Below, piece after piece: positions 25,039 through 40,142 of a DNA stretch of 64,000 bases. This DNA comes from an uncultured Candidatus Saccharibacteria bacterium. GTDB taxonomy: Bacteria > Patescibacteriota > UBA1384 > 2-12-FULL-50-11. The stretch lies in contig CAZRED010000001.1 in assembly GCA_964599405.1 (NCBI GenBank), forward strand, positions 75,528 to 139,527, in the 5' to 3' direction. The notes below the pieces were generated by a model. It ran no database searches. It saw only the letters and a program-made list of their open reading frames with translations, and was not told the origin of the DNA. Numbering within the stretch: position 1 is the first letter of the stretch; each line of letters opens with the position of its first letter. The position numbers and the translations under genes are program-made.

Positions 25039-25053
25039 TGCTATTGTGTAGCC

Positions 25054-25934: not shown

Positions 25935-26042
25935 GTTTCAATTGTATAGCAATTGGGGCATTGCTTGGTGGTCGGCAAACCGACCGCCATAGAAAAAGTG
26001 CGAAGGGCGGCGGCGCCCTTCGCACTGTGGGGGGGTGGTGGG

Positions 26043-26696
26043 TCAGAAGGAATCAAAACCAAGCTTCTTGAGCTTTTCTTCCGAATCGCTGACACCCGCA
26101 GCCTTCAAGAATACGACCGCATTGTCGTAGGCCTGGAAGTAGAACTTGGGTGTGTTCGTAAACTCCCACTTGTTCTTCCTCCCAGCAATCTGCCGGTAGC
26201 CAATCAGGTGCCCGTAGGTCGCCGACGTTCCGGGTGGAGATAGCTCCACACATGCCTCGCGAAGCTTGGTGATCTCGATGAAAGAGAGACCCTCCTTGAG
26301 AACGATCCCTTTCTCTTCAAGCAATCCGTATATAGCTTTTCGTGAGGCCGGGCTTAGGCCGGGTAGCCTATCGATATCGTCCTTACGACACCTTGCCAGC
26401 TCTGACAGTTTATTCACGCCCAGTTCGACCAGCGGCTTCCATGCCCGTTCTGGCAGACCAGCGGCGCTCAGCACTTCGTCTTCGGCTATCGCCGTAGACT
26501 CTGGGATAGTCGTCTTTTCCGGCGGCGGCACTCCTTTGCACCGGCTAATGATAGATTGTAGCTCGTCCTGTCGGTCTTCCAGCCATTTGATGGTCTTGTC
26601 TAGGTCGCTACGCACCGTTTTGAAATCGAGGATCATCTGGCGATTCAGTTCCCAAGTGTCCGAAGCTATCATGCGTACTTCTTCATCTCTATCCAT
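26043..26696 (-). CDS. helix-hairpin-helix protein with RNAP alpha-CTD-like domain
   Basis: Start MDRDEEVRMIAS with GGAGG 9 nt upstream. VNKLSELARCRKDDIDRLPGLSPASRKAIYGLLEEKGIVL resembles the alpha-CTD HhH. Confidence 0.5.
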   Translation of the reverse strand: MDRDEEVRMIASDTWELNRQMILDFKTVRSDLDKTIKWLEDRQDELQSIISRCKGVPPPEKTTIPESTAIAEDEVLSAAGLPERAWKPLVELGVNKLSELARCRKDDIDRLPGLSPASRKAIYGLLEEKGIVLKEGLSFIEITKLREACVELSPPGTSATYGHLIGYRQIAGRKNKWEFTNTPKFYFQAYDNAVVFLKAAGVSDSEEKLKKLGFDSF

Positions 26697-26697
26697 G

Positions 26698-26760
26698 CTT
26701 AAAGAACCTCCATAAGGGTTGTACGAGCATCGTACTGGAAAATTTTTGCCAGGCAAGGAT
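26698..26760 (-). promoter_or_regulatory. palindrome GTACGAgcaTCGTAC upstream of 26043..26696
   Basis: Perfect 6-bp arms at about 26725-26739. Confidence 0.35.
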
Positions 26761-26853
26761 GGAGCTGGGATTTTTGCCTGTGTGAAACACAATTAGTAAT
26801 AAAAGGGCGCGGATTGGCCGAAGCCGCACCGCGCAATTGTTTGATATTGTCTG

Positions 26854-27498
26854 TTACTCCGGGACGCCCATGGCCAACCGCTGATCAGCGCAGCTCATGG
26901 TGCCGAAAGGAACACGCTTGAAGATCCAGCTCCCCAGCTTGCGAAGCGCCTCCCTGTCCAGATCGCTGATGAGGTCGCCCTTCTTGTCGCTTAAGGAGCG
27001 GGCTTGATGCCTGAGATCGCCTTTAGCGGCCCAGAGGCCAGGGAGATACCAGATCTCCCAGTATTGACCATTGTCGGCCCTTCTTGATCGAAGGCAGACG
27101 AATCCCCAGGATTCCAGCATTGAACAGGCCTCGGCGTATTTCCTCTCTGTCCAATAGTAACCGCAGAGGGACTGGATCATGATGGATGGAGAAGCGTGCT
27201 TGTTCTCCTTGTCAGGACAGACAAACCATGCCTCTTTTGGCTCGCCTGTCTCCTTCCAGTGCGGACCAACCAGCGGGTCGGCCTGGGGAGTGGGCATTGG
27301 CTCGGTTAGCTCGCGCCTGACAAGGCGTCCCTCAACGCAGTCGACACGACACTGTCCAGCGAGCATCGCTTCCAGCATGTCTAGCTCGTTACTGAGCAGA
27401 TTGCCTAGACCCAGCTCACCATCGTTGTCCACTGAAGGCTTCCTACGGGTTACGCGGATTTCTTTCATAAATACCTCAAAGATCGAAGATGGGAACAT
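26854..27498 (-). CDS. hypothetical protein (island gene)
   Basis: W/Y/C-rich; start uncertain (MFPSSIF or MKEIRV); no motif. Confidence 0.45.
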   Translation of the reverse strand: MFPSSIFEVFMKEIRVTRRKPSVDNDGELGLGNLLSNELDMLEAMLAGQCRVDCVEGRLVRRELTEPMPTPQADPLVGPHWKETGEPKEAWFVCPDKENKHASPSIMIQSLCGYYWTERKYAEACSMLESWGFVCLRSRRADNGQYWEIWYLPGLWAAKGDLRHQARSLSDKKGDLISDLDREALRKLGSWIFKRVPFGTMSCADQRLAMGVPE

Positions 27499-27569
27499 TC
27501 TATCAGATGTATCTAGAAAATCCAACGAGTAAATCCCGCTTTTACCTGTGGAAAAGTCAACGAACGGTA

Positions 27570-27600
27570 TAGAAAAAGCGGCGGGTTTCCCCGCCGCCAG
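27570..27600 (-). terminator. rho-independent terminator for 27625..28290
   Basis: Minus strand GGCGGCGGGgaaaCCCGCCGC then TTTTTCT. Confidence 0.75.
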
Positions 27601-27624
27601 TACATTGTTCGCTTAGGACTCGAA

Positions 27625-28290
27625 CTACTCCGCTTTGCGCATGACGACCATGTCGCAAGGGACTTTGATCCCAGTCCTCGATCCCTGCCAGCCGTCACCG
27701 CTCCAGATCGTTTCACCTTCCCAGTGGTGGTTGGGCACGTAGCAAGTGAAGCCTTCGCGGTGGTCATAGACAGCTACTCTCTGGTGAATGCTGCCCGACC
27801 ACTGGTCGGCCATCGCTTGGGGAACGCCGTCGTAGGTGACGACGATGCCCTTCTGGCAAAGTTGTCCGAGTGTGTTGAGCAGACGTTTCAGCCGCTCTGG
27901 CGAGAAGTAATACGTCACGCTGATCAGGACTGCCCAATCAACTCGACTTCCTTCCGCCAACATCGAAACACAGACATCGTCAGCTGGGCCATGATAGTAG
28001 CGGGCGTAAAATCCCCGTCCCATTGTCCAGCGCAGGTTGTTGGCCGAGATGTCGTTGGCGTAACGCTCGCCGTGGCGAGCATGTGCGCAGAGAATGTCGG
28101 CGACCACTCCTGTGGCTGAGCCAATATCTAAAACCGTATCTTGGGCACCGATGAACGGCACCGCCTTGTCTTCGAAGACTTGGTGGAGGTTCACCTTGGC
28201 CAGCTGCAAACGCTGGCAGTACTCCCTGGGGTCATTGTGAAGTGCGAGGACCGCTTGGTCCTCCATATTGAGGGGCCATCCGGTTACCAT
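27625..28290 (-). CDS. class I SAM-dependent methyltransferase (substrate unknown)
   Basis: VLDIGSATGVVADIL motif I; start moved to MVTGWPLNMEDQ directly after the promoter. Confidence 0.6.
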   Translation of the reverse strand: MVTGWPLNMEDQAVLALHNDPREYCQRLQLAKVNLHQVFEDKAVPFIGAQDTVLDIGSATGVVADILCAHARHGERYANDISANNLRWTMGRGFYARYYHGPADDVCVSMLAEGSRVDWAVLISVTYYFSPERLKRLLNTLGQLCQKGIVVTYDGVPQAMADQWSGSIHQRVAVYDHREGFTCYVPNHHWEGETIWSGDGWQGSRTGIKVPCDMVVMRKAE

Positions 28291-28326
28291 GTTGCGATTT
28301 ATACCACATTTCTCGAGAAAAGTCAA
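28288..28326 (-). promoter_or_regulatory. leaderless promoter cassette TTGACT-17-TATAAA-7 nt-ATG with XhoI-centred palindrome
   Basis: Minus strand: TTGACT (plus 28321-28326), TATAAA (plus 28298-28303), ATG at 28290. Palindrome TTTCTCGAGAAA. Confidence 0.6.
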
Positions 28327-28403
28327 GTATTAAAGCCGCAATTTCGCCAATGGAAAATCCAGCAAGAGTGACGGGGTAGCGGAAAATAATAATCACTGTT
28401 ACG

Positions 28404-28901
28404 TTGCGGTTAATGCCACAGAAGCTCGATCAATACCGCGACCCAATCCTGGCTACCAATGAAAAAGTGATCGGTTTTTACGAGCGCGAATTTTATGTTT
28501 TTTCTAATTTCTCTAGTTTCCAGGTGGAGTGGCGGGGACGGCTTTGGCCAACGTCTGAACACGCTTTCCAGGCCGCCCATTTTTTCGACACTGCGCCGGA
28601 GCTGGTTGAACAAATTTTTAATGCCCGTTCCGCCCACGATGCTTTTAAAATCGCTAAAGCCAACGGCGACAAAGCGCCGAAGAATTGGGAAGAAATCAAA
28701 GTTGGGATTATGGAAGATATCTGCCGCCACAAACTCCTGCAACACCCTTACGTCGAAAAGAAGCTCCGCCAAACCAAAGACTGGCCGCTCGTGGAAGACT
28801 CGCCGAGCGATCCTTGCTGGGGTTGGGGTAAAGACCGGAAAGGCCGTAACGAACTCGGCAAGGTTTGGATGCGTCTGCGCGACGAACTCAATAAAAAGTA
28901 A
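28404..28901 (+). CDS. NADAR-domain protein (YbiA/DUF1768-like)
   Basis: FYVFSNFS...WPTSEHAFQAAHFFD NADAR signature; 165 aa. Confidence 0.65.
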   Translation: MRLMPQKLDQYRDPILATNEKVIGFYEREFYVFSNFSSFQVEWRGRLWPTSEHAFQAAHFFDTAPELVEQIFNARSAHDAFKIAKANGDKAPKNWEEIKVGIMEDICRHKLLQHPYVEKKLRQTKDWPLVEDSPSDPCWGWGKDRKGRNELGKVWMRLRDELNKK

Positions 28902-28933
28902 TTTCCAGCGGGTGGATACAATAAGGTGGCGAA

Positions 28934-29341
28934 CTAGCTTTTAGAGTGATGTTCCAACCAGCTGGCAATTTCTGGTAGTGCTACTTGTTTGCTTGCTACT
29001 TTCATCACAAATTGTTCTGCTTCTTGATTGGAAGCTGTCAGCTTAAAACCGTTGATAAATAAAAACCGAGCAACGCTAGCCAAGCCGGTGCGTTTATTGC
29101 CGTCAACGAAGATTTGATACGCCGCAAAACTTTCCAGATAGGTCGCGGCTTTGAGAAAAACTGTCGGGAATTGTTCTTCACCAAATACCGCTGACTTTGG
29201 TCTTTCGGCAGTTGATAGAAATAAGTTCATATCACGGACACCATGAGATCCACCAACTTTTTCGATGATTTGGTGATGGATATACAATATCTCCTCGCCA
29301 GTCAGATAGCGCGCCTGGCGATTACTTTTTGGCAAGCTCAT
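28934..29341 (-). CDS. doc: Doc/Fic-family toxin
   Basis: FVDGNKRTG Fic/Doc motif; start moved to MSLPKSNRQARYL (ORF-track N-extension unlikely). Confidence 0.7.
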   Translation of the reverse strand: MSLPKSNRQARYLTGEEILYIHHQIIEKVGGSHGVRDMNLFLSTAERPKSAVFGEEQFPTVFLKAATYLESFAAYQIFVDGNKRTGLASVARFLFINGFKLTASNQEAEQFVMKVASKQVALPEIASWLEHHSKS

Positions 29342-29531
29342 CAAGTGCCGGTCGGTACTGGTCAATGAACTTATTTGTCCACTCGTGTAGCTCTGGGCTA
29401 ATGACAGTTTTGGCTGGTTTTTTGACGATAACCTCAACCTGGTCGCCCACGGTGACGTTCAGTTTTTTCAGCTCGCTTTTAGGAATAATTACTCCTGTTG
29501 AACTGCCGATCTTGATCAGTTTTTGAGTCAT
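29322..29531 (-). CDS. AbrB/MazE-fold antitoxin (Phd-like partner of Doc)
   Basis: MTQKLIKIGSSTGVIIPKSELKKLNVTVGD; 20-nt overlap with doc. Confidence 0.65.
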   Translation of the reverse strand: MTQKLIKIGSSTGVIIPKSELKKLNVTVGDQVEVIVKKPAKTVISPELHEWTNKFIDQYRPALDELAKK

Positions 29532-29565
29532 GTTTCGATTATAACTTTATAATAATAATCGTCAA
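29529..29565 (-). promoter_or_regulatory. leaderless promoter TTGACG-16-TATAAT-6 nt-ATG for the antitoxin gene
   Basis: Minus strand: TTGACG (plus 29560-29565), TATAAT (plus 29538-29543), ATG at 29531. Confidence 0.55.
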
Positions 29566-29666
29566 TGTGAAAAACTTCCGGCGGGTGGGGTTGAGGTGGA
29601 GGGGTTCATTTTTCGCTGTTTTTCGGTTATACTCTTCGCAACGCACTTTCAATTGGTAAAAAACAA

Positions 29667-30284
29667 ATGGACAGAAAATTCACTCAGACCGAGCTTGAAG
29701 AAGCTTTTCCGGTTTTATTCGGAGAAGTGACGAAGACATTTCACAACAACGCCCAGATCGACAACTGGCCACGCGCTCTGTGGCTGTTTTCATCTATAAT
29801 GATGTTCGCCGCATTTCTCATCTACTTGACTATAGTGCTTACGAAGCCGAATGCGGATATTTGGGATGTTGTCTTGGTTAATGGCACAGGCATTCTCACT
29901 GTATCCAGCTTCTTTTTGTTTCTGTTTGGTGACGAGGACACATCCAGTAAGCACTACCTGGAGCGGAAATACTTGCACCTGGTTGAAGACACCGAAGCAT
30001 ATGATCTTCTTCTGGAAGCGTTGAACAATCGGAAGAAAGGGGTTGTGAGGGGACTTGGTGGCAAGAAGAAAACGGAAGAATATCTGCGCAAGCTCTGGAT
30101 TACGGCGTTCGATGAGGCTAGGTTGCTGGTAGCGGAGCCAATCCTGGGTAAACCCGCAGAACAGCCGATTGCCGATCGCGTCAGGGAGCATCTCCAGCTA
30201 CACGACCAAGCACGCGAACAAGCGATAGACGAGGTTTACAACCGCTCACCGGAGGTTACCGATGACCTGCACCAACAGAACTAG
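29667..30284 (+). CDS. two-TM membrane protein with charged C-terminal domain
   Basis: 205 aa. Confidence 0.5.
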   Translation: MDRKFTQTELEEAFPVLFGEVTKTFHNNAQIDNWPRALWLFSSIMMFAAFLIYLTIVLTKPNADIWDVVLVNGTGILTVSSFFLFLFGDEDTSSKHYLERKYLHLVEDTEAYDLLLEALNNRKKGVVRGLGGKKKTEEYLRKLWITAFDEARLLVAEPILGKPAEQPIADRVREHLQLHDQAREQAIDEVYNRSPEVTDDLHQQN

Positions 30285-30401
30285 ACCTGGACCGCACGAC
30301 CTGAAAAGGTACGGCGGTTTTTTTCTTTTGCCTGTGGAAAAGCCCGCCCTGAGCTTGTCGAAGGGTCAACGGCCAGCGGGTGGGTTCATTATAAAATGTT
30401 T

Positions 30402-30432
30402 AGAGCCGCCCCATCGGGGCGGCTCTGTTTTG
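30402..30432 (+). terminator. rho-independent terminator
   Basis: AGAGCCGCCCCatcGGGGCGGCTCT then GTTTT. Confidence 0.8.
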
Positions 30433-30480
30433 CGCAGGATATTCACATAGGTTTGGATGTAAGCACGGGATCTATCGAGC

Positions 30481-31449
30481 TTAAACGGCTACCTCCTGGA
30501 AATCATGACAGGCAAAGACCTGTGTCTCGCCGTCACGGTTCAGGCAGGTGTCTTGAGCGCAATTTCGAGCGTCGCTCTCAATCGCCTCAATCATCTCGTC
30601 GGTGGCTCGCGGGTCGTGGTGCGTCAGTCCTAAGACTTTCGCTCCAATCTCGCAAGCTGTCCGAACACAGTAGTCTGGTGTGCCATGCCCATAGCCGGCT
30701 GTCTTGGTATTGTAGGTTTCGCGGTCGTACTGCGAATCCATCACCAAGAAATCGGCCTCCTTGAGGTGTGACTTCATTCGGGCAGGCATTTGGTCAAGAT
30801 TCTCGTGATCGGTTAGAAAAACGAAAACCTTACCTGTTGGTCGCTCTTCAAAACGATACGAAATCGTCCGTTCCGGGTGATTGGTGTAGTACATTCGCAC
30901 CACCAAACACTCGGAGATGTTGTAGTGGCCCCCTCTGATCTTGATTTGGCTCGGGGTCTTTCCCTGAACGCCATCAAGCTCCTCAATTGCCACTTTCTTC
31001 ATACCGCCCTCCGGGTGGAACACCAGGACAACAGCAGATGGAACTGTGATTCGGATCGGCCGAAATCGCTGCGCGATTTCGGTGAAGTTGACTGGGTGAA
31101 ACGGGGTGCGCATAACGTACTCGAAAGCCTTGCGAGGATCGTAACCCTCCTCGACCGGTCCGTAGACGTTAAAGCGCATCGATGGCGAGTAGATTGCTGG
31201 ACACAGCAGGAGCCCTTGAGTGTGATCGTGATGATAGTGAGTCATCAACAGATGTGTCTCGGTGATCTTTTCCTTAAGCAGCTGGTCTCCGAGTGGAAAC
31301 AAGCCGCTACCGGCATCAATCACGAGGGCGTTGTCCAGCGGTAGACATTGCGACTCAACCCGCAAGCAGGTGGTGTTACCACCGTACTTGAGAAAGTCTT
31401 GGCCGCTAACGGGGATTGAACCCCTGGTTCCGTAGAAGGTGATCTTCAT
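30481..31449 (-). CDS. MBL-fold metallo-hydrolase
   Basis: THYHHDH metal-binding motif; 322 aa; GGAG SD. Confidence 0.7.
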   Translation of the reverse strand: MKITFYGTRGSIPVSGQDFLKYGGNTTCLRVESQCLPLDNALVIDAGSGLFPLGDQLLKEKITETHLLMTHYHHDHTQGLLLCPAIYSPSMRFNVYGPVEEGYDPRKAFEYVMRTPFHPVNFTEIAQRFRPIRITVPSAVVLVFHPEGGMKKVAIEELDGVQGKTPSQIKIRGGHYNISECLVVRMYYTNHPERTISYRFEERPTGKVFVFLTDHENLDQMPARMKSHLKEADFLVMDSQYDRETYNTKTAGYGHGTPDYCVRTACEIGAKVLGLTHHDPRATDEMIEAIESDARNCAQDTCLNRDGETQVFACHDFQEVAV

Positions 31450-31582
31450 GGTTTTCTCCGTCGCGTCTTACAGCAACCAAAGAGCCATGTGAAGGTGCGC
31501 AATTCGCCGCAAGTATATACCTTAAAAACAGGAATAACTATGAAAACTTACAAAAATAACGACGGGTGGGGTTGAAGTATAG

Positions 31583-31610
31583 AAAAAGCGGCGGGGAAAA
31601 CCCGCCGCAA
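31583..31610 (-). terminator. rho-independent terminator for 31630..32016
   Basis: Minus strand GCGGCGGGttttCCCCGCCGC then TTTTTCT. Confidence 0.75.
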
Positions 31611-31629
31611 TTCGAATGCTGCCTGCAGT

Positions 31630-32016
31630 TCAGTCCAGAAGCCTGAACTCGACGTCAAAGTCGTGCCGAACACTCCCCACGAACCCGACCAGCTTGAGTT
31701 TCCCGTCTGCATCCAGCCGTATGCGCATGGATGTTAGCTTGTCGTCAAACTCCTTTCCCACTGACATGAGCGGTTCGGTAACAGGTGTGATGGTGACGAA
31801 GTGGGGCCTGTCCTCATCAGGAGGATTGGCGGAAACAGACGCGATCGTTCCATAGAGCTCACACGGCAGATGGGTTCTTGGCTTTCCGTATCTGTTGTAT
31901 ATCTCCATGTGGAACTTTTTGCCGATTAGATCCTCAGGCATCAGACCGTCAAACTTGTCAGAAACAAGCTTTCTAGTCAGAGCCACCGATCCTTTATCAG
32001 AAAGTACGCTGAGCAT
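31630..32016 (-). CDS. hypothetical protein (island gene)
   Basis: Start moved to MLSVLSDKGS; the ORF-track TTG start coincides with the -35 TTGACT. Confidence 0.5.
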   Translation of the reverse strand: MLSVLSDKGSVALTRKLVSDKFDGLMPEDLIGKKFHMEIYNRYGKPRTHLPCELYGTIASVSANPPDEDRPHFVTITPVTEPLMSVGKEFDDKLTSMRIRLDADGKLKLVGFVGSVRHDFDVEFRLLD

Positions 32017-32052
32017 ACTGCGAAATATATTACTTTTCTCGAGAAAAGTCAA
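32014..32052 (-). promoter_or_regulatory. second copy of leaderless promoter cassette TTGACT-17-TATATT-7 nt-ATG with XhoI-centred palindrome
   Basis: Minus strand: TTGACT (plus 32047-32052), TATATT (plus 32024-32029), ATG at 32016. Near-identical to 28288-28326. Confidence 0.6.
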
Positions 32053-32096
32053 GGGTTAGAACCGCAATTTTGCCTGTGGAAAAGTCGTTGTCTAAC

Positions 32097-32126
32097 CTTG
32101 ACTTTTTCTTGGTTTACAGGTATAAT
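32097..32126 (+). promoter_or_regulatory. sigma70-like promoter TTGACT-17-TATAAT for 32142..32375
   Basis: cTTGACTttttcttggtttacaggTATAAT. Confidence 0.65.
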
Positions 32127-32141
32127 TCTCTCGTCACTTAG

Positions 32142-32375
32142 GTGGCTGGAGGAAGTGTGAGAACCCTAACAATCATCGCGTCGCACGACGAACAAACCGA
32201 GTACTTGCACAACGTCTTAAAAGAAGGCGGCTGCAATACCTTTCCGGAATACGAGGGTGAATGTCCAAGCTGCAAAAACATCCTCAGATCCAACCTTACT
32301 GAAGTTAACTGCCCTGGTTTTGGTTGCGATGGTCTTGAGCCAGTCAGACTGGAACACAAACACAGATTCGGCTAG
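32142..32375 (+). CDS. small zinc-ribbon protein
   Basis: 77 aa, GTG start; CPSC...CPGFGC. Confidence 0.45.
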   Translation: MAGGSVRTLTIIASHDEQTEYLHNVLKEGGCNTFPEYEGECPSCKNILRSNLTEVNCPGFGCDGLEPVRLEHKHRFG

Positions 32376-32390
32376 AGCAACTTCTTGAAC

Positions 32391-32425
32391 GGGCGCGGCG
32401 AAAGCCGCGCCCTTCTCTTTTTCTG
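32391..32425 (+). terminator. rho-independent terminator
   Basis: GGGCGCGGCgaaaGCCGCGCCC then TTCTCTTTTTCT. Confidence 0.8.
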
Positions 32426-32445
32426 TAAAAAAGCCAATCTCACAG

Positions 32446-32465
32446 ATATACGTTAAAACATATAC
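32446..32465. promoter_or_regulatory. variant copy of ATATACGTTTAAACATATAT palindrome
   Basis: ATATACGTTAAAACATATAC. Confidence 0.45.
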
Positions 32466-32525
32466 GAGGGGTTAGAAGATAAAGTAAAAACCGTGAATGA
32501 CCCATACGCCCGGGTTGTTCGTCTT

Positions 32526-33305
32526 TTATGGTCGGAGAGTCCCGGCAAAGACCTGCCAGGCCAGTAAGCTCTTGGCGACAAGTGAAAGAATAATATACGC
32601 CCGTTCGCCGTAGAGATAATCCGCCCATTTACCGATCTTTTTGTACTGGAGGGTCATATTGATAGCAAAACAGTTGAAGAAAACGAAGATCGAAACGTAA
32701 ATCCAGTAAACAAACGTTGGGATATCGCCGGAGCCGTAGCGACTAGCCGCCCAAAACCAAATTGCCACCACCAACCACGGGATTACCCCGGCAAACGTCC
32801 CCAACTTAAAGGCCAACCAATTGGGTTTTTGGCCGCTCTCTAATGTGCCTTGGTTGTATATTTCCATTGCCAGGCCAGTGAGATTCATGATTGCCACTAA
32901 GGCAAAAATCATCAGCAAACTCGTCAGGTCATAGATCCCCACCAACATAGCAATGGCCACCATCATGACTGAAGCCGAGACGCTGTACTCCCACCACCGG
33001 GCCTTATTGACGCCCCTAAGCAGGTTGGCGTTGTAACTGCGATTGTAAACAGTGGCAATAATCAGGTGGGCCAGGGCGGAGATTGCCAGAAATCCCGCTA
33101 CCAGCCAGACCAGAGGCATATTAAACAGTGTCTCACTAGCTGGGATCAGCGATTGGCTAGCGATATCAAAGCGCAAGAAACCGACATTAACCGGCAAGGA
33201 AAAATCAGCGCTCAAATATACAATCGCCGCCGCCTGCAGTGCATGCAGCAGTGCCATAACCAAATTGAACTTACGTAGCTTTGCTAATCTAACGTCTTGC
33301 TCCAT
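32526..33305 (-). CDS. heliorhodopsin (7-TM retinal protein)
   Basis: Full-length collinearity with heliorhodopsin: FNLVMALLHALQ, RWWEYSVSASVMMV (E counterion), GVIPW, KWADYLYGERAYIILSLVAKSLLAWQ (Schiff-base Lys). Confidence 0.8.
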   Translation of the reverse strand: MEQDVRLAKLRKFNLVMALLHALQAAAIVYLSADFSLPVNVGFLRFDIASQSLIPASETLFNMPLVWLVAGFLAISALAHLIIATVYNRSYNANLLRGVNKARWWEYSVSASVMMVAIAMLVGIYDLTSLLMIFALVAIMNLTGLAMEIYNQGTLESGQKPNWLAFKLGTFAGVIPWLVVAIWFWAASRYGSGDIPTFVYWIYVSIFVFFNCFAINMTLQYKKIGKWADYLYGERAYIILSLVAKSLLAWQVFAGTLRP

Positions 33306-33484
33306 CGCCCCTCCTCCATTTATTTAACGATACCGCAATCCGCCAACGCAACAAGCAATATCAAACCAAACGCTAGGCAGGGAGTGGAATTTCTCTTTAG
33401 TTAGTTGGTTAGTTCGGGTTTTTCTTCTATGTGTTTGTCAGTAGTCATTATGGTGTTCTAGCAGTATTAGCGAAGCGTCAGAGT

Positions 33485-34000
33485 TAGAAAGTTAGTTATA
33501 TATTTATAAAGAACTCCCCTTTTTCCATTTCCATACCTTAAAGATAGTCATATTTTGGTGCAACTGCTGCACCAGTTCAAAGCCGGGGTTACAAAGCTTA
33601 GTTATATATTTATAGAGACTCCACTTTGGCGATTGTACTTACCTGTTAGAGCGATCTTTTTTGTCTCAGCTGCTGAGACGTTTTGTTAGATGAAACTAAT
33701 GAGTACTAAGTGGTGTAGATATGTATAGAAAGTGTAGTGATTTTTATTGATGAAGCTGTGAATGTCTTGGAAGTGGTATCAGGCCGGATGTTTCTTAGTA
33801 TATATATTAATAAAGACTCTACTTTTTCTTTCAGTTAACCAGGAAATTGAACGAATTTAGGAGCAACAGCTGCTCTTTTTGGGTAGCGAAGCCGAACATT
33901 AGCAGGGGGTCAGTAATATATATAAAGAGTAGTGAATTTTGTTTACTAAACCTGCAAAGATCGGCTTTTCGGTATCAGGCCTGATACCGGTGTCTCCAGG
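33485..34000 (+). repeat. tandem array of 5 degenerate ~105-bp units, each with AT-rich TATAAAG box and downstream hairpin
   Basis: TATA(A/G)AG boxes at 33505, 33611, 33723, 33809, 33921. Hairpins 50-52 nt downstream: GGTGCAactgcTGCACC (33557), GTCTCAGCtgcTGAGAC+GTTTTG (33663), GAGCAacagcTGCTC+TTTTTG (33859), GGTATCAGGccTGATACC (33972). Confidence 0.6.
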
Positions 34001-34153
34001 TAATTAATTGGCGTGCAGTGACGGTATACTTACGAAATAAATCGCTACTCCAACCGCCGCCAGAATTATCGCTACCCACCAAACTGGATTCATGGTTTTA
34101 GTTTAGCAAAAACGGTAGTACCCAACGAATAATCGCTTGTATAGTGGAAGAGT

Positions 34154-35884
34154 CTACGTAGTATCAGTAAAACATACGTTGTAGATCTCGTCGCCCAAAT
34201 CTTTCCAATGACTAGATTTATAATTGAAGGTTTCCGTGGAGAAATCTATTTTTCCAGAAAGTTTACTAAAGCCCTTATCATAGTAAGCGAAGCCATTCAC
34301 CTTATTATTCTCGATCAATATACGCATACAATGAATCAAGCCAGTAATCGTAGTCACGGTCAGCGCTCGGCTAACCTTCTGCTTAGTGGTCCACATATCG
34401 TTCGGTATTTGGTTCTTGAATGCTTTAAGAAACTCATTTATTTCTTTAGTGCAAAATTCTACGTATTCATTTAATAGGGCAGTATCTTTACCGTCTCTAA
34501 GCTCACTCTTTTTCCCTTCACTCCAAACATTAAAAAGCGTGTCCTTCCCTGAAAGCTTAACTACGTGCCTTACTCCGTAGGAAACTATAGATGTTGTTTT
34601 TAGCTTACCCTTGTCGAAAAAGTGTCTTTCGAGAACTTTATCCATTGGGTCAAGCTCAGCAAGTTTATTCATTACCTTCTTGGCTATAGATACCTCGTCG
34701 AACGGATTTACTATTGTATTAATTACTTGACGGAGAGACCCACTGGTTCTTGTCTGTCTATCATTAATTTCTAAAAATAGCTTCGCTTCAAACCTTCCTC
34801 GGTCTTCGAGAGATAGGTCGCTAGGGAAGACAATACCCGTAATCAAAAGGTGCTGCTTATCTCTTAAACTACTAATGTGCGTGTCATGTGCATCATCACC
34901 TTCATGGTATGAAAATACCCTATGTTGTCCGTCGATAATCCCAATGTTCCCGGCAACCTTTGGGATCCTAATTTTTATAGGATCCTTCATTACCCCTGTA
35001 CTTATTGGGAGATTTATCCGGTCGTTACTTTCATACTCAAGAAGTTGTAAGTCATTAGGTAAAGAGACGATGATATTATTTACGAATACCCGACCCTCAC
35101 TAGCAAGGTACTTACGCATATTACGTATTTTGTTACCGAGGATAATTCTTTGATAAACAAAGTCACTATCTTGCCAACCATCCCTTCTCAGTACATAAGC
35201 TTGCTTTAATAAGGTGTTTGGGTCAATTAGAAAAGATACCAGGTTATGCCCACTTGGAAAGCCACTCGGAGTTTCTGGAAGAATAAGGCCAACATAATCA
35301 TCCCCCGGAGAGCCGCTATTCTGTGGCCCTATCTCCTCAAATCCAACCCCGATAAATTTAAATAGTTCGAATCTTGCAGATCTTTTAATCGTTTTTGAGA
35401 GGCTTAAGAAATAACTACGTGACTTGTAATCCATAAAATGAAGGTGCTGATAACGATCTCTAAGTGACTGAGTTACCTCTTCGTGCGAAACATATAAGAA
35501 TGCTAACTTAATATCATGACTAGCGTAGCCCGCGGTAGAATTTTTCCCGTAATTTGGGATTTTGCTCTTAAAAAGCTCAATTAAGTCATTTTGGTTGTTC
35601 TTGCAGTTAGTAAAGAACTCAGCTTTCTTCCGAAGGTGATCAGTATCACTTGTTGTAGTATCCTCTACGATAAGAATAAGGTTCTCGAAAACAAAAACAT
35701 TATCTAGATCGCTTTCTTGTCCACATAGATTAATTTTAAAGTCTTCGGCGACTGCCATAAATCCCATATTGCTAAAGGTAGTGCGTACGTCCCTTCTAAT
35801 TTTTCTCTTAAGGCCTAATCTTTCACTGTCTGATAGGTTAGGCATATTATTTATTGTCTTGATGCATAATTCTCTTATACCCAA
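34154..35884 (-). CDS. DGQHR-domain (DndB-like, ParB/Srx fold) protein
   Basis: GIIDGQHRV at aa 318-322, codons verified at 34919-34933. 576 aa with about 220 aa N-terminal domain of unknown function. Overlaps upstream MTase stop. Confidence 0.7.
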   Translation of the reverse strand: MGIRELCIKTINNMPNLSDSERLGLKRKIRRDVRTTFSNMGFMAVAEDFKINLCGQESDLDNVFVFENLILIVEDTTTSDTDHLRKKAEFFTNCKNNQNDLIELFKSKIPNYGKNSTAGYASHDIKLAFLYVSHEEVTQSLRDRYQHLHFMDYKSRSYFLSLSKTIKRSARFELFKFIGVGFEEIGPQNSGSPGDDYVGLILPETPSGFPSGHNLVSFLIDPNTLLKQAYVLRRDGWQDSDFVYQRIILGNKIRNMRKYLASEGRVFVNNIIVSLPNDLQLLEYESNDRINLPISTGVMKDPIKIRIPKVAGNIGIIDGQHRVFSYHEGDDAHDTHISSLRDKQHLLITGIVFPSDLSLEDRGRFEAKLFLEINDRQTRTSGSLRQVINTIVNPFDEVSIAKKVMNKLAELDPMDKVLERHFFDKGKLKTTSIVSYGVRHVVKLSGKDTLFNVWSEGKKSELRDGKDTALLNEYVEFCTKEINEFLKAFKNQIPNDMWTTKQKVSRALTVTTITGLIHCMRILIENNKVNGFAYYDKGFSKLSGKIDFSTETFNYKSSHWKDLGDEIYNVCFTDTT

Positions 35885-36770
35885 ACTTCAAATATTTTTT
35901 ATTAAGCTCTGCCCCCACTGAGTTTCTGCCCTGCTTTTCGGCAGCGACAGAGGTAGTAAACGTACCAGCGAAGGGGTCGAAAATCGTATCTCCCTTATTG
36001 CTACTCACTTTTATAAAGAGCTCTAGCAAATTCAGTGGCAGTTGGCATGGATGGTCTTTCTCCTTCAGCTCGCCCGGCTCCATGGACCGAAACTTATTTC
36101 CAAGGTTCCGAACTCGATCCTTGGAATTATTCTTCATCATGTGCATATCTATAGTATCGATTAGGCCATCTTGTAGCTCTATCAGATCAAGGAACCTTAA
36201 TAAGTCGTATGAGGTTCTGCCCTTAGATCCTTCTGCGATACGTTTCCGTACTACTGGCGCGGTTGGATTTTTATAGTGCTGTACTAAATTTTCTCTATTG
36301 AAGACATAGCCCTTCGTTGACTTAGTAAAAAATAAAACAGACCTCTGGCTTCGCGTATAATTATTTTTTGAATGCCCAATATTTGTGGGGTAGTGCCATG
36401 TAATCCATCTCCGGTAATTAAGACCTAGCTCATCTTGAAGATAGGGCAGAAGGCGGGCATTAATCTCGGGGTAACTAATTAGGTAGAAGCTCCCCTTGTC
36501 ACTTAAGATTCTTGGGATATCGCGCAATTTGGCTTCTAGCCAGGCATAATACTCCTTCCAGGACTTGGAGTCGTCAAAGCTACCATAGTCGAGCCCCATA
36601 TTGTAGGGAGGATCCGTAATAATGAGGTCTATACTTTTACTAGGGATCTGACTGATTATCTGTTCGCAATCACCTAGCACGAGGATGTGTCCTGTTTTTT
36701 CTTTCTCAATAAAGTCAAAGGCAAAGCCTTGCTTGCTTATAGGTTTGAGGATAGATTTTATATTCCTCAT
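35847..36770 (-). CDS. DNA methyltransferase (beta class, DPPY; N4-C or N6-A)
   Basis: LIITDPPYNMG motif IV, N6_N4_Mtase-like; 307 aa. Confidence 0.75.
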   Translation of the reverse strand: MRNIKSILKPISKQGFAFDFIEKEKTGHILVLGDCEQIISQIPSKSIDLIITDPPYNMGLDYGSFDDSKSWKEYYAWLEAKLRDIPRILSDKGSFYLISYPEINARLLPYLQDELGLNYRRWITWHYPTNIGHSKNNYTRSQRSVLFFTKSTKGYVFNRENLVQHYKNPTAPVVRKRIAEGSKGRTSYDLLRFLDLIELQDGLIDTIDMHMMKNNSKDRVRNLGNKFRSMEPGELKEKDHPCQLPLNLLELFIKVSSNKGDTIFDPFAGTFTTSVAAEKQGRNSVGAELNKKYLKFGYKRIMHQDNK

Positions 36771-36807
36771 AAGCCTATTCTATACAAATATTCTCGAAAA
36801 GAAGTGA

Positions 36808-37899
36808 CTATTTTTTGCCTTTGCGGCGGTTATCGTCGCGGCAGAGCATTTGGCAGTTATCGGCATTAGTTTTTCCGCCCTCAACCCACGGCGTAATGTG
36901 GTCGGCTTCCATTTCTTCAATCTCAAAATGTTTACCACAATCCGGACAAACACCTTTCTGTCGTTCAAAGGCCTCGCGTTTCATGTTATCGGTAAACGCC
37001 CGAATATTTAGACACTTTTCTTCACGGGTTAGAACATATTCATAGATACCGGACTTTTTTGTTACGTCTTCGTCCATCATCAACTGTGTAACTTCCGCTT
37101 CCAGCTTGTCGGTATCGAACTTATCGTCCTTAAATTGATTGTAAAATCTGCCCCAATCCAAACCTTTCATTTCTTTTCGATACTTCGGAAAAGTCAGACG
37201 TGTCCAGCTTATAACATTTTGGAAGTACGACCAAAGCTCATTGGCATTTTGGTCGTGTTGGTGCTTGGCCATGTAGTCTTCTATTTTTCCGTCGTTAATC
37301 CAAGCTAGCGTAGTTTCCAGTATCTCTTGCCGAATTGGCGAACCGTTCACTAGCTGCCCGCCATCGCTAGCTAGCAAATAAGCTGCACAGTTAGATTTGC
37401 TGAATTTCAGTTTGGCGTCACTTAGCCATGGTCCAGTATAAATCGCATTGCGGAGCTCTTGGTCGGTTAATTTTTCGCCAGCGATGTTAATGATTCTGAA
37501 CCAATCCAGTCTTTCTTTGTCGGTGCCTTCGCACCAGTAAATCATCAGCTCATAGTCCTGAATTTGCTTCTGTTCCTCATCAGTTAGGTTGTGGAAAAAG
37601 CGATCTTTGAGCGAAAAATCACCGTTGACATATTGCCCAATACTTATTGTTCGTTGCTGGCCGTCCATAACTTCAAAGTTCCCTTGGTCGGTTTTGACCC
37701 AATACATTACGTTCAGCGGAAAACCATTTTTAATCGTTTCTATTACTGCGTCGCGCTGCTTGTCTTTATAAACAAATTCACGTTGGTATCTTGGGCGGAT
37801 GTCGAGTTTACCACCGTAAGCTATGACGCCTTCCTCGGCGCTGTCTTTGTAGCCGACGATCACTTCTCGAACAGGAATTCGTTGTAGTTCAATTTTCAT
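36808..37899 (-). CDS. DUF262 (DGQQR NTPase-like, ParB fold) + HNH endonuclease; SspE/GmrSD-like
   Basis: VMDGQQRTISIGQY (codons verified at 37651-37665). C-terminal CPDCGKHF...ADHITPW...NADNCQMLCRDDNRRKG HNH. Confidence 0.75.
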   Translation of the reverse strand: MKIELQRIPVREVIVGYKDSAEEGVIAYGGKLDIRPRYQREFVYKDKQRDAVIETIKNGFPLNVMYWVKTDQGNFEVMDGQQRTISIGQYVNGDFSLKDRFFHNLTDEEQKQIQDYELMIYWCEGTDKERLDWFRIINIAGEKLTDQELRNAIYTGPWLSDAKLKFSKSNCAAYLLASDGGQLVNGSPIRQEILETTLAWINDGKIEDYMAKHQHDQNANELWSYFQNVISWTRLTFPKYRKEMKGLDWGRFYNQFKDDKFDTDKLEAEVTQLMMDEDVTKKSGIYEYVLTREEKCLNIRAFTDNMKREAFERQKGVCPDCGKHFEIEEMEADHITPWVEGGKTNADNCQMLCRDDNRRKGKK

Positions 37900-38983
37900 T
37901 TTGTGTCCTTTTCCTTTGCTTAATTATTATTCTTGCGTATGTCGCTTTGCCGTTGATGATAGCGCCTACATATTTTTTATGCTGTTCATCAAGATATGTT
38001 GGATTCCCTTGTATTAACGAGTCTGACTTCTCTCTCTTGTCTGCAAATAAGCCAATAATTTCAAACTGTTGGGGGTTATATTTATCTAGAAAAGTAATCG
38101 GAACACCCATTGCACCATTCCAATCCATAGGTACGTCTGCAAACTTAGAAACCTCTATCGCATCATAATTGTCGTATTTTGGATATTCTTCAGGCGTGTA
38201 TTTTTTATACAAGTCTACCTCCTCGTGACGCTTGGTGGTGTCAAGGTTTGTGAACCATACTATGCTTCCCATACTGATGTATTTGATGCCATTCTCGATT
38301 TTCTTTCTTGATTCGGTCGGGATATCGTAATCATCAGGAACTTGGAACCACTTTGTGCCACCATTATCATATCCAAGCCACATTTTATTTTCTTTAATAA
38401 GTTTGAAGGTCTCTTTATACGTGATGGCATTCTGGTTACCAAGAATCAAAAACTTTTTATCATATTCCATAAGCTGCGCCACATACTCGCGAAACAATGA
38501 AAACGGCGGGTTTGTCACTACGATATCGGCTTCTTTGAGCAGCTCTATACACTCATGACTTCTAAAATCACCGTTGCCTTGTAAGGACGATGAAGTATTT
38601 TTAGTGTGCTTTATAAGATTCTGAACATCACCCAAATCTACAGCGCCATCACCATCACTGTCAGGCACTTCGTTTACTTCGACTTTAAATGGTTGCTTAC
38701 CATCTGGCTTTAGACCCTCCATCTCGAAGATTGGCAACTGCGTTCCAGCAATAGGCGATTTAGTGTAGCTGGTGGCGATAAGTTTTTTTAAGCCCAAATG
38801 GTTAAAGCTGCTCGCAAAATACTTGAAAAAATTACTCTCATACGGATCGTCACAATTACAAAAAACAACCTTGCTGCGGAATTGATCTTTGTATCGCGTT
38901 AACTCTTTTTCGATATCAGCACGTTGTGTGTAAAACTCGTCCTTTTTCTGCAACTTTGCTGTATGTAAATTATTCTGCGCCAT
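37889..38983 (-). CDS. N6-adenine DNA methyltransferase (NPPF motif)
   Basis: IVVTNPPFSLF motif IV; 364 aa; TAATG coupling with upstream small ORF. Confidence 0.7.
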   Translation of the reverse strand: MAQNNLHTAKLQKKDEFYTQRADIEKELTRYKDQFRSKVVFCNCDDPYESNFFKYFASSFNHLGLKKLIATSYTKSPIAGTQLPIFEMEGLKPDGKQPFKVEVNEVPDSDGDGAVDLGDVQNLIKHTKNTSSSLQGNGDFRSHECIELLKEADIVVTNPPFSLFREYVAQLMEYDKKFLILGNQNAITYKETFKLIKENKMWLGYDNGGTKWFQVPDDYDIPTESRKKIENGIKYISMGSIVWFTNLDTTKRHEEVDLYKKYTPEEYPKYDNYDAIEVSKFADVPMDWNGAMGVPITFLDKYNPQQFEIIGLFADKREKSDSLIQGNPTYLDEQHKKYVGAIINGKATYARIIIKQRKRTQNEN

Positions 38984-39252
38984 TAAATTAGCCGGGTGTT
39001 TTTGAGCTTTGCTAGGTAGCTAAAGTCATCTTCTGATATTTTGGGCACAACATTGAACGTTATTTTCGTTTTTGATGTGTCGCTTATTGCACCGCCTAAT
39101 ACTACAAAGTATTTTATCTCTCCCTTAGCTTCTTTTGTTGATTCAACTTCTACCTCAACTTTTATCGCACCCCAAACTACACCGTTCTTAAGATTATTGA
39201 TAAGTTCGTTGGTGAGATTCTCAATGTAAGATGAAAGCTCAACTTTCTCCAT
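38983..39252 (-). CDS. small operon-leading protein of unknown function
   Basis: 89 aa; its stop overlaps the MTase start (TAATG). Confidence 0.45.
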   Translation of the reverse strand: MEKVELSSYIENLTNELINNLKNGVVWGAIKVEVEVESTKEAKGEIKYFVVLGGAISDTSKTKITFNVVPKISEDDFSYLAKLKNTRLI

Positions 39253-39289
39253 TTGCCAAATTCTACTCTTTTTAACCTGAAAAAGCCAG

Positions 39290-39330
39290 GTTTGGGGAAC
39301 AACCCACCCCGGGTGGGTTGTTCAGGGGCT
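39290..39330 (-). terminator. tandem hairpins between HEPN-like gene and defense operon (attenuator/terminator)
   Basis: CAACCCACCccgGGTGGGTTG and AACCTGgctttttCAGGTT. Confidence 0.4.
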
Positions 39331-39408
39331 ATGGTCGCGCGGGACAGATTTGGTCACGGTAGATCGGGTAAATCAACTAATAACATTCTTGCATATGGAA
39401 GGGATTAA

Positions 39409-40131: not shown

Positions 40132-40142
40132 TTACCCAAGAG

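What the first reader, a model, noticed from the sequence alone, without database searches (positions are those of the whole stretch)
32526..33305. Heliorhodopsin encoded inside the accessory island
The protein aligns end-to-end with heliorhodopsin, including the TM3 Glu counterion (WWEYSVS) and TM7 Schiff-base Lys (SLVAKSLLAWQ). No retinal-biosynthesis genes are present in the window. Its position at the junction between the host-like and AT-rich island segments suggests it was brought in as cargo.
Basis: partly seen in the sequence, partly recalled or inferred. Interest (0 to 1): 0.6.

Follow-up and report, generated by a model that had tools for sequence, protein, structure and literature searches.

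The report
Heliorhodopsin in a CPR variable gap
The gene is an intact, canonical heliorhodopsin (a retinal-binding light-sensor membrane protein) in a tiny-genome Patescibacteria bacterium, sitting in a variable stretch between two chaperone genes; this is already known for the group, so it is ordinary.

Summary
Observation confirmed. The ORF at 32526-33305 (-), 259 aa, is a full-length heliorhodopsin. Pfam PF18761 scores 313 bits over 1-242/242, and the NCBIfam HeR equivalog scores 325 bits against a cut-off of 100. The AF2 model (pLDDT 90.5) superposes on TaHeR at TM 0.92-0.95. The counterion Glu106 and Schiff-base Lys245 (SLVAK) are in place, and 30 of 35 published key residues are identical. 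The charge distribution predicts an N-terminus-in topology. No carotenoid or retinal genes were found in the ORFs scanned.

The host is a Patescibacteria (CPR) bacterium. HeRs with this same motif, and without retinal synthesis, are already catalogued for this group.

The "accessory island" is real. Four relatives with a collinear backbone have only 0.4-5 kb between dnaK and the dnaJ-like gene, and no HeR there. The window has about 16 kb (24.1-40.15 kb) in that position.

Arrival with the AT-rich block is not supported:
- The GC break lies about 100 bp upstream of the HeR start codon.
- HeR composition matches the backbone.
- The AT-rich block consists of two Type II R-M modules.
- Relative L007 has HeR at the same site, next to a different R-M system.
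- No mobility genes or att repeats were found.

HeR is an accessory resident of a hot spot and probably arrived before the R-M layer. It is a new member of a known kind, and interest is low.

The parts
32526..33305 (-). Heliorhodopsin gene (259 aa). Counterion Glu106, Schiff-base Lys245 (S241-L-V-A-K245), His21 and His80; seven TM helices plus an AB-loop beta-hairpin.
33306..33325 (-). Translation-initiation region of HeR: Shine-Dalgarno GGAGGAGG about 6 nt upstream of the ATG.
   Evidence: Read directly from the sequence.
32493..32522 (-). Hairpin followed by a T-run (GGTTTTTACTTT on the minus strand) immediately after the HeR stop codon. It is a putative intrinsic terminator, which would make HeR a single-gene transcription unit.
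   Evidence: The scan listed this hairpin only on the + strand; the minus-strand terminator reading is my own inspection of the sequence, so this is an inference.
24100..40154 (.). About 16 kb of variable 'gap' between the dnaJ-like gene (23487-24092) and dnaK (40155-42107). The same interval is 0.37-5.2 kb in four collinear relatives. This is the accessory island that contains HeR.
   Evidence: Its dinucleotide signature deviates from the backbone.
33400..40154 (-). AT-rich block (GC about 0.40). It holds two Type II restriction-modification modules: DndB/DpdB-like 34154-35884 with N6_N4 MTase 35847-36770, and DUF262-HNH REase 36808-37899 with EcoRI-type MTase 37889-38983. An unknown ORF lies at 39409-40131. 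This is a separate acquisition layer next to HeR.
23487..24092 (-). dnaJ-like gene (201 aa), the conserved left anchor of the gap.
40155..42107 (-). dnaK, the conserved right anchor of the gap.

Best explanation
The ORF encodes a canonical heliorhodopsin that is probably functional. It is a seven-helix retinal protein with its N-terminus in the cytoplasm. All-trans retinal would bind to Lys245 as a protonated Schiff base, with Glu106 as counterion, supported by Ser76, Ser110, Ser241, His21 and His80. By analogy with characterised HeRs it most likely does not pump ions. Instead it would act as a slow-cycling light sensor that modulates a partner protein. The partner cannot be identified from this locus.

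The gene is a stand-alone cistron in a Patescibacteria (CPR; the syntenic relative L007 is titled Candidatus Saccharibacteria) chromosome. The window has no retinal pathway, and published work reports the same for Saccharibacteria genomes that encode rhodopsins, so the chromophore would have to be scavenged from host or neighbouring cells.

The gene lies in a hypervariable gap that splits the grpE-dnaK-dnaJ-like gene run. It is an accessory gene that probably entered this gap before the window and L007 lineages diverged, most likely from another CPR bacterium. The adjacent AT-rich restriction-modification block is an independent insertion and probably a later one.

Shown here: family, fold, residues, topology signal, gap polymorphism, compositional classes. 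Inferred: retinal binding, sensory role, retinal scavenging, order of acquisitions.
For: Family membership:
- Pfam PF18761, 313 bits, profile positions 1-242 of 242.
- NCBIfam HeR equivalog, 325 bits against a cut-off of 100.
- Best PDB sequence hits are TaHeR (4.8e-75) and 48C12 (1.7e-51).
- The AF2 model has pLDDT 90.5. Foldseek gives TaHeR TM 0.92/0.95 and rmsd 1.4 A, against about 0.6 for type-1 rhodopsins.

Residues and topology:
- 30 of 35 published key residues are identical, including 16 of the 17 most conserved polar or charged ones. The exception, Q213 to Met, is described as a frequent variant (PMC7049168).
- K+R counts are 10 on the N-terminal side and 3 on the other side, predicting N-in.
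- The gene has its own Shine-Dalgarno sequence and a putative terminator.

Host:
- The closest named DnaK relatives are Patescibacteria and Berkelbacteria.
- The 80 best HeR loci in the GTDB scan are almost all titled as CPR lineages.
- L007, a MAG whose NCBI record title says 'Candidatus Saccharibacteria', shares the order HeR, dnaJ-like, w20713, TrxR in the same orientation at 65-77% identity.

Gap polymorphism:
- The dnaK to dnaJ-like distance is 0.37 kb in L089, 1.3 kb in L090, 4.1 kb in L171 and 5.2 kb in L173, with no HeR. It is about 16 kb in the window.

Composition:
- HeR has GC 0.494 and GC3 0.608. Genes outside the 20-40 kb region average 0.497±0.028 and 0.538±0.048. The R-M genes have GC 0.35-0.44.
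- HeR codon-usage z is -0.58.

Other points:
- No retinal genes were found in the window ORFs scanned.
- Published context: 98 HeRs in CPR genomes with SLVAK among the commonest motifs (PMC9166423); Saccharibacteria encoding rhodopsins lack blh and are proposed to use external retinal (PMC9296517); HeRs regulate glutamine synthetase, photolyase and an ABC transporter.
Against: - Nothing was tested biochemically. Retinal binding, absorbance and photocycle are inferred.
- No conserved partner gene exists: no neighbour family recurs in more than 13 of 88 CPR HeR loci. None of the ten published neighbour groups (PMC11109279) was detected by Pfam among the genes flanking HeR in the window.
- Only 64 kb of the genome was seen, so retinal genes elsewhere cannot be excluded from these data.
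- The early-entry scenario rests on one syntenic genome (L007).
- In the closest HeR relatives (84% nt, 90% aa in L085; 87% aa in L086 and L087), similarity stops at the gene borders and the flanks differ. This fits gene-sized transfer as well as local turnover.
- Relatives without HeR in the gap may carry it elsewhere in their genomes.
Confidence: 0.8

Rival explanations
1. HeR arrived together with the AT-rich segment as cargo of a single, recently acquired mobile island.
For: HeR abuts the AT-rich block. The whole 24.1-40.15 kb interval is absent from four collinear relatives. R-M genes also lie near HeR in L007 and L041.
Against: - The GC break is upstream of the HeR start codon, and HeR composition and codon usage match the backbone, whereas the R-M genes have GC 0.35-0.44.
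- L007 has a different R-M system (AlwI REase with an N6_N4 MTase) beside its HeR.
- L041 shares the R-M pair at 59-74% identity, but its HeR belongs to a distant clade.
- No integrase, transposase, att repeat or flanking direct repeat was found.
- In the tblastn comparison only 4 of the 80 related HeR loci held a homologue of a window MTase within their flanks.
Confidence: 0.07
2. HeR is an ancestral, vertically inherited gene of this lineage. The 'island' is simply accessory DNA that accumulated around it, and relatives without HeR in the gap lost it.
For: - HeR identity to L007 (65-66%) matches that of the flanking backbone genes (65-77%), with the same order and orientation.
- Composition is native.
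- JGI sample 3300032144 yields both an 87%-identical HeR contig (L086) and a 91%-identical DnaK contig (L088). This is compatible with co-divergence if both come from one organism.
Against: - Four of the six relatives whose gap could be read lack HeR there.
- HeR is patchy in CPR: rhodopsins were found in 86 of 1326 genomes (PMC9166423).
- HeR sits in unrelated contexts in most of the 88 loci.
- Flanks differ even in the relative with 90% HeR identity.
Confidence: 0.3
3. HeR moves among CPR genomes as a single-gene unit and was inserted independently into the same hot spot in the window lineage and in L007.
For: Nucleotide similarity to the closest relative (L085) runs from the start codon to 26 nt past the stop codon and then ends. 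HeR contexts across CPR are highly diverse. heR occurs on a mobilizable Lactococcus plasmid and on two viral contigs, though these are only 46-47% identical.
Against: No recombination sites or mobility genes flank the gene. The identical orientation and order relative to dnaJ-like in the window and L007 is more simply explained by shared ancestry. No close homologue was found in the phage, plasmid or viral collections.
Confidence: 0.15
4. The ORF is a type-1 (ion-pumping) rhodopsin or a decayed, non-functional rhodopsin relic.
For: None beyond the shared seven-helix fold.
Against: No Bac_rhodopsin hit appeared at E<=1. Type-1 structures reach only TM about 0.6 with 10-15% identity. The TM7 motif is SxxxK, not DxxxK. 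The ORF is intact, has a Shine-Dalgarno sequence, and keeps 30 of 35 key residues.
Confidence: 0.01

Closest known systems
TaHeR (Thermoplasmatales archaeon SG8-52-1 heliorhodopsin; PDB 6is6, 7u55)
   Same: The sequence match covers residues 3-259 at E=4.8e-75, with 52-53% identity in the structural alignment. The model superposes at TM 0.92-0.95 and rmsd 1.4 A. The counterion Glu and Schiff-base Lys are in the same positions. The C-terminal half of helix G is almost identical (YIILSLVAKS.LAWQVFAGTLRP).
   Different: The host is bacterial (CPR), not archaeal. There are two short insertions, of 4 and 5 residues, in the stretch from the end of helix D to the start of helix F. No spectroscopy exists for this protein.
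HeR 48C12 (the founding heliorhodopsin; PDB 6su3, 6uh3, 9ljj)
   Same: 43% identity. 30 of 35 structurally important residues are identical, including the Schiff-base cavity set N16, H23, H80, Y92, N101, R104, E107, Y108, E230 and S237.
   Different: Q213 is Met, S112 is Ala, N138 is Val, I142 is Asn and Y179 is Trp. These are pocket, helix-packing and dimer-interface positions, so colour tuning or dimer contacts may differ.
Catalogued CPR / Saccharimonadia heliorhodopsins (Chiriac et al. 2022, PMC9166423; Bulzu et al. 2021, PMC8612252)
   Same: Same host group and the same SLVAK helix-7 motif. The window shows no retinal pathway; the comparable published report for CPR concerns type-1 rhodopsin-bearing Saccharibacteria (Jaffe et al. 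2022). The closest genome-resolved relatives (64-69% identity) are titled Berkelbacteria, Saccharibacteria and Dojkabacteria.
   Different: This particular sequence has only one identical database entry, which is unnamed (P0001), and its next relative is 90% identical. In the papers I read, I did not see its location inside the dnaK to dnaJ-like gap described.
Partner-regulating HeRs (AbHeR with glutamine synthetase, TfHeR with photolyase, OcHeR with the OmrDE ABC transporter)
   Same: Same family, and this is the assumed mode of action: a light-dependent regulator of a partner protein.
   Different: Pfam detected none of the published partner gene families next to HeR in the window. The gene is monocistronic and convergent with a small Zn-ribbon-like ORF.

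Membership tests
Heliorhodopsin (Pfam PF18761 / NCBIfam NF038020) | Full-length match to the family profile above the curated threshold | tested here: met
   PF18761 scores 313.4 bits (cut-off 26.7) over profile positions 1-242 of 242. NF038020 equivalog scores 325 bits (cut-off 100).
Heliorhodopsin (Pfam PF18761 / NCBIfam NF038020) | Retinal-binding Lys in helix 7 within an SxxxK motif (type-1 rhodopsins have DxxxK) | tested here: met
   S241-L-V-A-K245. K245 aligns with 48C12 K241 and, by my count from the alignment, with the TaHeR Schiff-base Lys. The motif definition is from PMC9166423.
Heliorhodopsin (Pfam PF18761 / NCBIfam NF038020) | Single Glu counterion in helix 3, with the His/His/Ser Schiff-base cavity set | tested here: met
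   E106, H21, H80, S76, S110, N100, R103, Y107 and E234 are all identical to their 48C12 equivalents (roles from PMC7049168).
Heliorhodopsin (Pfam PF18761 / NCBIfam NF038020) | Seven-TM fold with a long AB-loop beta-hairpin, closest to solved HeR structures | tested here: met
   AF2 model with pLDDT 90.5 and strands at 36-47 and 52-64. The top 10 Foldseek hits are all HeRs (E<=2e-14); type-1 rhodopsins appear only at E around 1e-3.
Heliorhodopsin (Pfam PF18761 / NCBIfam NF038020) | Inverted membrane topology (N-terminus cytoplasmic) | tested here: inconclusive
   The positive-inside count is 10 K+R on the N-terminal side and 3 on the other side, which predicts N-in. This is a prediction only; it needs an experimental topology assay.
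Heliorhodopsin (Pfam PF18761 / NCBIfam NF038020) | Binds all-trans retinal, has a slow photocycle and shows no ion transport | not testable with these tools
   Requires expression and spectroscopy.
Type-1 microbial rhodopsin (PF01036) | Profile match and the DxxxK helix-7 motif | tested here: not met
   No PF01036 hit at E<=1. The motif is SLVAK. Structural TM is about 0.6 with 10-15% identity.
Integrative mobile genomic island (tRNA-anchored island, ICE or prophage) | Integrase or recombinase gene and flanking att direct repeats | tested here: not met
   No integrase or transposase family appeared in any gap ORF scanned. There is no second copy of the tRNA-Lys 3' end. No convincing flanking direct repeats were found.
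Flexible genomic region / insertion hot spot | Conserved flanking genes with variable content between them in related genomes | tested here: met
   The dnaK and dnaJ-like anchors are conserved in L089, L090, L171 and L173. Gap sizes are 0.37, 1.3, 4.1 and 5.2 kb against about 16 kb in the window, and the contents differ.

The most novel reading that the evidence does not exclude
The dnaK to dnaJ-like spacer of this Saccharibacteria-like clade may be a recombinase-independent insertion hot spot. In it, a heliorhodopsin would persist as a long-lived single-gene cassette while defence genes (different R-M systems, Fic, Bro-N) turn over around it. HeR itself may be exchanged among CPR lineages as a gene-sized unit, since similarity to the closest relative ends at the gene borders. 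A more speculative extension is that placement inside the chaperone gene run reflects a light-stress link between HeR and DnaK/DnaJ.
Probability: 0.15. Interest if true: 0.4.

Novelty: new member of a known kind. Interest (0 to 1): 0.15.

Why it matters
The practical value is modest. The gene adds one more intact heliorhodopsin from an ultra-small, host-dependent bacterium that shows no retinal pathway in the sequence available. This fits the published idea that CPR bacteria borrow retinal from their hosts. The physiological role of heliorhodopsins is still open. Because this gene has no operon partner, it does not make that question easier to test. The one mildly useful point is genomic. The dnaK to dnaJ-like gap is a clear insertion hot spot that can be compared across genomes, and it could be used to follow gene flow of defence systems and photoreceptors in Patescibacteria.

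Tried and rejected
- **Exact-sequence contig look-ups** for the window protein and for its identical database entry P0001 returned nothing. The cluster look-up gave no names or accessions.
- **tRNA-Lys (19730-19802) as an island attachment site:** no second copy of its 3' end exists. The genes just downstream of it (w20713, dnaJ-like) are conserved backbone. Rejected.
- **Flanking repeats of the AT-rich block:** only short imperfect matches of the kind expected by chance.
- **My initial conclusion** that HeR was simply native and that no island existed, based on composition and L007 synteny, had to be revised. Relatives found through DnaK showed the empty or short gap.
- **Metagenome scan with the dnaJ-like protein as anchor** was swamped by generic J-domain hits. 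It gave one true orthologue, on a 2-kb contig. This scan was wasted.
- **Search for a conserved HeR partner across 88 CPR loci:** none found. The most frequent neighbours were ABC ATPase (13 loci), NUDIX (12) and Cupin_2 (11).
- **Phage, plasmid and viral-contig searches** for a vector of this HeR clade found no phage hit and only 46-47% relatives elsewhere.
- **Sigma-70 promoter scan** upstream of HeR found no match, and the total number of matches in the region was below the shuffle expectation.

Full report
**1. Observation**

The ORF at 32526..33305 on the minus strand (259 aa, ATG start) is present exactly as reported. It is preceded by a strong Shine-Dalgarno sequence, GGAGGAGG, about 6 nt before the ATG. 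Directly after the TAA stop there is a hairpin with a T-run. The scan listed that hairpin on the + strand only; reading it as a minus-strand terminator is my own inspection.

About 115 nt further on lies a perfect 9-bp GC hairpin. The scan called it a + strand terminator, and it follows a small convergent Zn-ribbon-like ORF (32142-32375, +). HeR therefore looks like a single-gene transcription unit.

**2. Identity**

Sequence evidence:
- Pfam gives only PF18761 (Heliorhodopsin), E=1.2e-93, 313 bits, covering profile positions 1-242 of 242. No type-1 rhodopsin family appears at E<=1.
- The NCBIfam equivalog 'heliorhodopsin HeR' scores 325 bits against a cut-off of 100.
- The best solved relatives are TaHeR (6is6, E=4.8e-75) and 48C12 (6su3, 1.7e-51).

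Structural evidence:
- An AlphaFold2 model built on 31 homologues has pLDDT 90.5 and pTM 0.87. It shows seven TM helices and the long AB-loop beta-hairpin at residues 36-47 and 52-64.
- The model superposes on TaHeR with TM 0.92/0.95 and rmsd 1.4 A.
- All ten top Foldseek hits are heliorhodopsins. Type-1 rhodopsins follow at TM about 0.6 with 10-15% identity.

Residue evidence:
- Glu106 occupies the counterion column. The TaHeR E108D mutant 7clj shows D at that position.
- Lys245 occupies the Schiff-base column, within S241-LVA-K245.
- I mapped the 35 residues that Kovalev et al. (PMC7049168) describe as structurally important in 48C12. Thirty are identical in the window protein.
- Sixteen of the 17 most conserved polar or charged residues are identical. 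The exception is Q213 to Met217, which that paper calls a frequent variant.

Topology: K+R residues number 10 on the N-terminal side of the membrane and 3 on the other side, which predicts the inverted N-in topology. This is a prediction only.

**3. Host and what is already known**

DnaK (40155-42107) has its nearest named relatives in 'Patescibacteria group bacterium' (82%) and Berkelbacteria (74%). The 80 closest HeR loci among GTDB species representatives are almost all titled as CPR lineages: Saccharibacteria, Berkelbacteria, Dojkabacteria, Woykebacteria and others, at 59-69% identity.

The literature already covers this situation:
- Chiriac et al. 2022 found 115 rhodopsins in 86 of 1326 CPR genomes. 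Ninety-eight were HeRs, 80 of them in Saccharimonadia, and SLVAK was among the commonest helix-7 motifs (PMC9166423).
- Jaffe et al. 2022 found no blh in Saccharibacteria that encode rhodopsins and proposed that retinal comes from host Actinobacteria (PMC9296517).
- Bulzu et al. 2021 analysed HeR neighbourhoods in monoderms, including Patescibacteria (PMC8612252).

In the window, Pfam scans of 60 ORFs found no phytoene synthase, phytoene desaturase, lycopene cyclase or carotenoid oxygenase family.

**4. Is there an island, and is HeR cargo?**

*Composition.* The HeR gene has GC 0.494 and GC3 0.608. Genes outside the 20-40 kb region average 0.497±0.028 and 0.538±0.048. HeR codon usage under the backbone model (genes outside the 24.1-40.15 kb gap) has z = -0.58.

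GC drops sharply to 0.36-0.39 at about 33400, roughly 100 bp upstream of the HeR ATG. It returns to 0.59 at 40200, next to the dnaK stop codon.

*The AT-rich block.* The block at 33.4-40.15 kb encodes two Type II restriction-modification modules:
- an EcoRI-type MTase with a DUF262-HNH REase (PADLOC REase_II, 478 bits);
- an N6_N4 MTase with a DndB/DpdB-like protein.

It also holds one unknown ORF (39409-40131). There is no integrase or transposase, no second copy of the tRNA-Lys 3' end and no convincing flanking repeat.

*Comparative synteny.* This was the decisive evidence. Relatives found through DnaK (83-91% identity) share a backbone that is collinear with the window over more than 40 kb. 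The order is: Zn-ribbon, MiaA, ABC, ABC-2, CofD, TrxR, w20713, dnaJ-like, dnaK, GrpE, ComEC, MBL, YebC, RuvC, then glycosyltransferases.

| Genome | dnaK to dnaJ-like distance | HeR in the gap |
|---|---|---|
| L089 | 0.37 kb | no |
| L090 | 1.3 kb | no |
| L171 | 4.1 kb (includes an M23 peptidase 78% identical to window 25278-25934) | no |
| L173 | 5.2 kb (includes an IS200-type transposase) | no |
| Window | about 16 kb (24.1-40.15 kb) | yes |

The 'accessory island' is therefore real. Its GC-normal part (24.1-33.4 kb) also has a dinucleotide signature outside the backbone range: delta* is 76, against a maximum of 67 for backbone chunks.

*Evidence that HeR did not arrive with the AT-rich block:*
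- L007, a MAG titled Candidatus Saccharibacteria, has HeR, then 4.6 kb, then dnaJ-like, w20713 and TrxR. The order and orientation match the window, at 65-77% identity for all four genes. HeR divergence equals that of its backbone neighbours.
- On the dnaK side of HeR, L007 carries different cargo: an AlwI REase with an N6_N4 MTase, plus Bro-N, Fic and PD-(D/E)XK genes. That stretch is also AT-rich.
- L041 carries the window's EcoRI-MTase/DUF262-HNH pair (59% and 74% identity) directly after an HeR from a distant clade of the HeR tree.

The R-M modules and HeR therefore have independent histories. HeR is the only gap gene shared by the window and L007.

*Caveats:*
- In the closest HeR relatives (L085, 84% nt and 90% aa; L086 and L087, 87% aa), similarity ends at the gene borders and the flanks differ.
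- Across 88 CPR loci no neighbour family recurs in more than 13 loci.
- Both points are also compatible with gene-sized transfer.
- No close homologue is carried by known phages, plasmids or viral contigs. The best matches are 46-47% identical, including a mobilizable Lactococcus plasmid.

**5. Mechanism**

Shown here: the protein has every sequence and structural determinant of a retinal-binding heliorhodopsin.

Inferred from characterised family members:
- It binds all-trans retinal at Lys245, with Glu106 as counterion.
- It takes up exogenous retinal readily, as reported for TaHeR.
- It does not transport ions.
- It acts as a slow light sensor that modulates a partner protein, as shown for glutamine synthetase, photolyase and an ABC transporter.

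Pfam detected none of the published partner families next to the gene, so the partner remains unknown. I consider the sensor/regulator model likely (about 0.7). The identity of the target is open.

**6. Verdict**

HeR is correctly identified, and the island is real. The cargo inference is wrong in its specifics, because HeR is separate from the AT-rich R-M layer and probably older than it.

This is an uncharacterised member of a well-known family, in a host group where it has already been catalogued. Novelty: new member of a known kind. Interest: 0.15.

Noticed in passing
window 33306-34153: An 850-bp AT-rich stretch with no ORF longer than 45 aa lies between HeR and the R-M block. It carries 21-nt direct repeats TTAGTTATATATTTATA(A/G)AGA at 33492 and 33598 (95% identical), with a 76% copy at 33796. 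These could be promoter or operator elements, or decayed sequence.
   Followed up: no
window 36808-38983; L041 8170-10366: The EcoRI-type adenine MTase and DUF262(GmrSD_N)-HNH Type II REase pair recurs at 59% and 74% aa identity in another MAG titled Candidatus Saccharibacteria. There it lies directly downstream of a distantly related HeR, and it is AT-rich there too. The R-M module appears to move among CPR genomes independently of HeR.
   Followed up: partly
window 34154-36770: A 576-aa DndB/DpdB-like protein has a start that overlaps the end of an N6_N4 DNA methyltransferase gene. This is an unusual MTase partner and may be a non-canonical restriction or modification-sensing component.
   Followed up: no
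window 39409-40131: A 240-aa ORF with the lowest GC in the window (0.349) has no Pfam hit and only a weak PADLOC match (Cas7c, E=3e-4). It sits upstream of the EcoRI-type MTase, where a cognate endonuclease might be expected.
   Followed up: no
window 28404-29437: A NADAR-domain gene (28404-28901, +) is convergent with a Fic/DOC gene (28934-29437, -) inside the variable gap. L007 also has a Fic gene in its gap, but the two Fic proteins show no detectable similarity.
   Followed up: no
window 21601-22656; L171 16637-17692; L173 17692-18753: A bacterial type IB topoisomerase lies beside the dnaJ-like gene. It is conserved at 86% identity in L171 and 68% in L173, and no homologue was detected in L089, L090 or L007. 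This is a second, smaller presence/absence polymorphism in the same region.
   Followed up: partly
window 32142-32412: A small (77 aa) Cys-rich, Zn-ribbon-like ORF on the + strand is convergent with HeR. It is followed by a perfect 9-bp GC hairpin with a T-run (32391-32412). No homologue was found in the seven related loci compared.
   Followed up: no
window 31630-32052: The 140-aa ORF just downstream of HeR has no family hit. Its codon usage is the joint most atypical in the gap (z = -3.3 against the backbone), so it is likely a separate foreign gene.
   Followed up: no
L173 14053-14697; L088 6518-7348: In L173 the dnaK to dnaJ-like gap contains an IS200-type Y1 transposase. In L088, the closest relative (DnaK 91%), dnaK is followed by an unrelated ORF whose sequence resembles BRO/antirepressor proteins by eye; this was not profile-tested. 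Both observations fit a hot spot.
   Followed up: partly
plasmid NZ_CP141705.1 4149-4913 (hit H1): An annotated heR gene, 47% identical to the window protein, lies on a 10.5-kb mobilizable Lactococcus petauri plasmid. This shows that heliorhodopsin genes can be plasmid-borne.
   Followed up: no
window 5489-7171: The alanyl-tRNA synthetase ORF is only 560 aa. It has the catalytic and tRNA_SAD domains. From memory, this is much shorter than typical bacterial AlaRS, and it may be a genome-reduction feature of CPR bacteria.
   Followed up: no
88 CPR HeR loci (L001-L087 plus the window): The most recurrent neighbours of CPR HeRs are an ABC-transporter ATPase (13 loci), NUDIX (12), Cupin_2 (11, of which 8 are within 2 kb), HxlR (8), FMN reductase (8), FtsX/MacB permease (7) and a response regulator (7). 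The ABC and redox themes echo the published HeR-ABC transporter and oxidative-stress proposals.
   Followed up: partly
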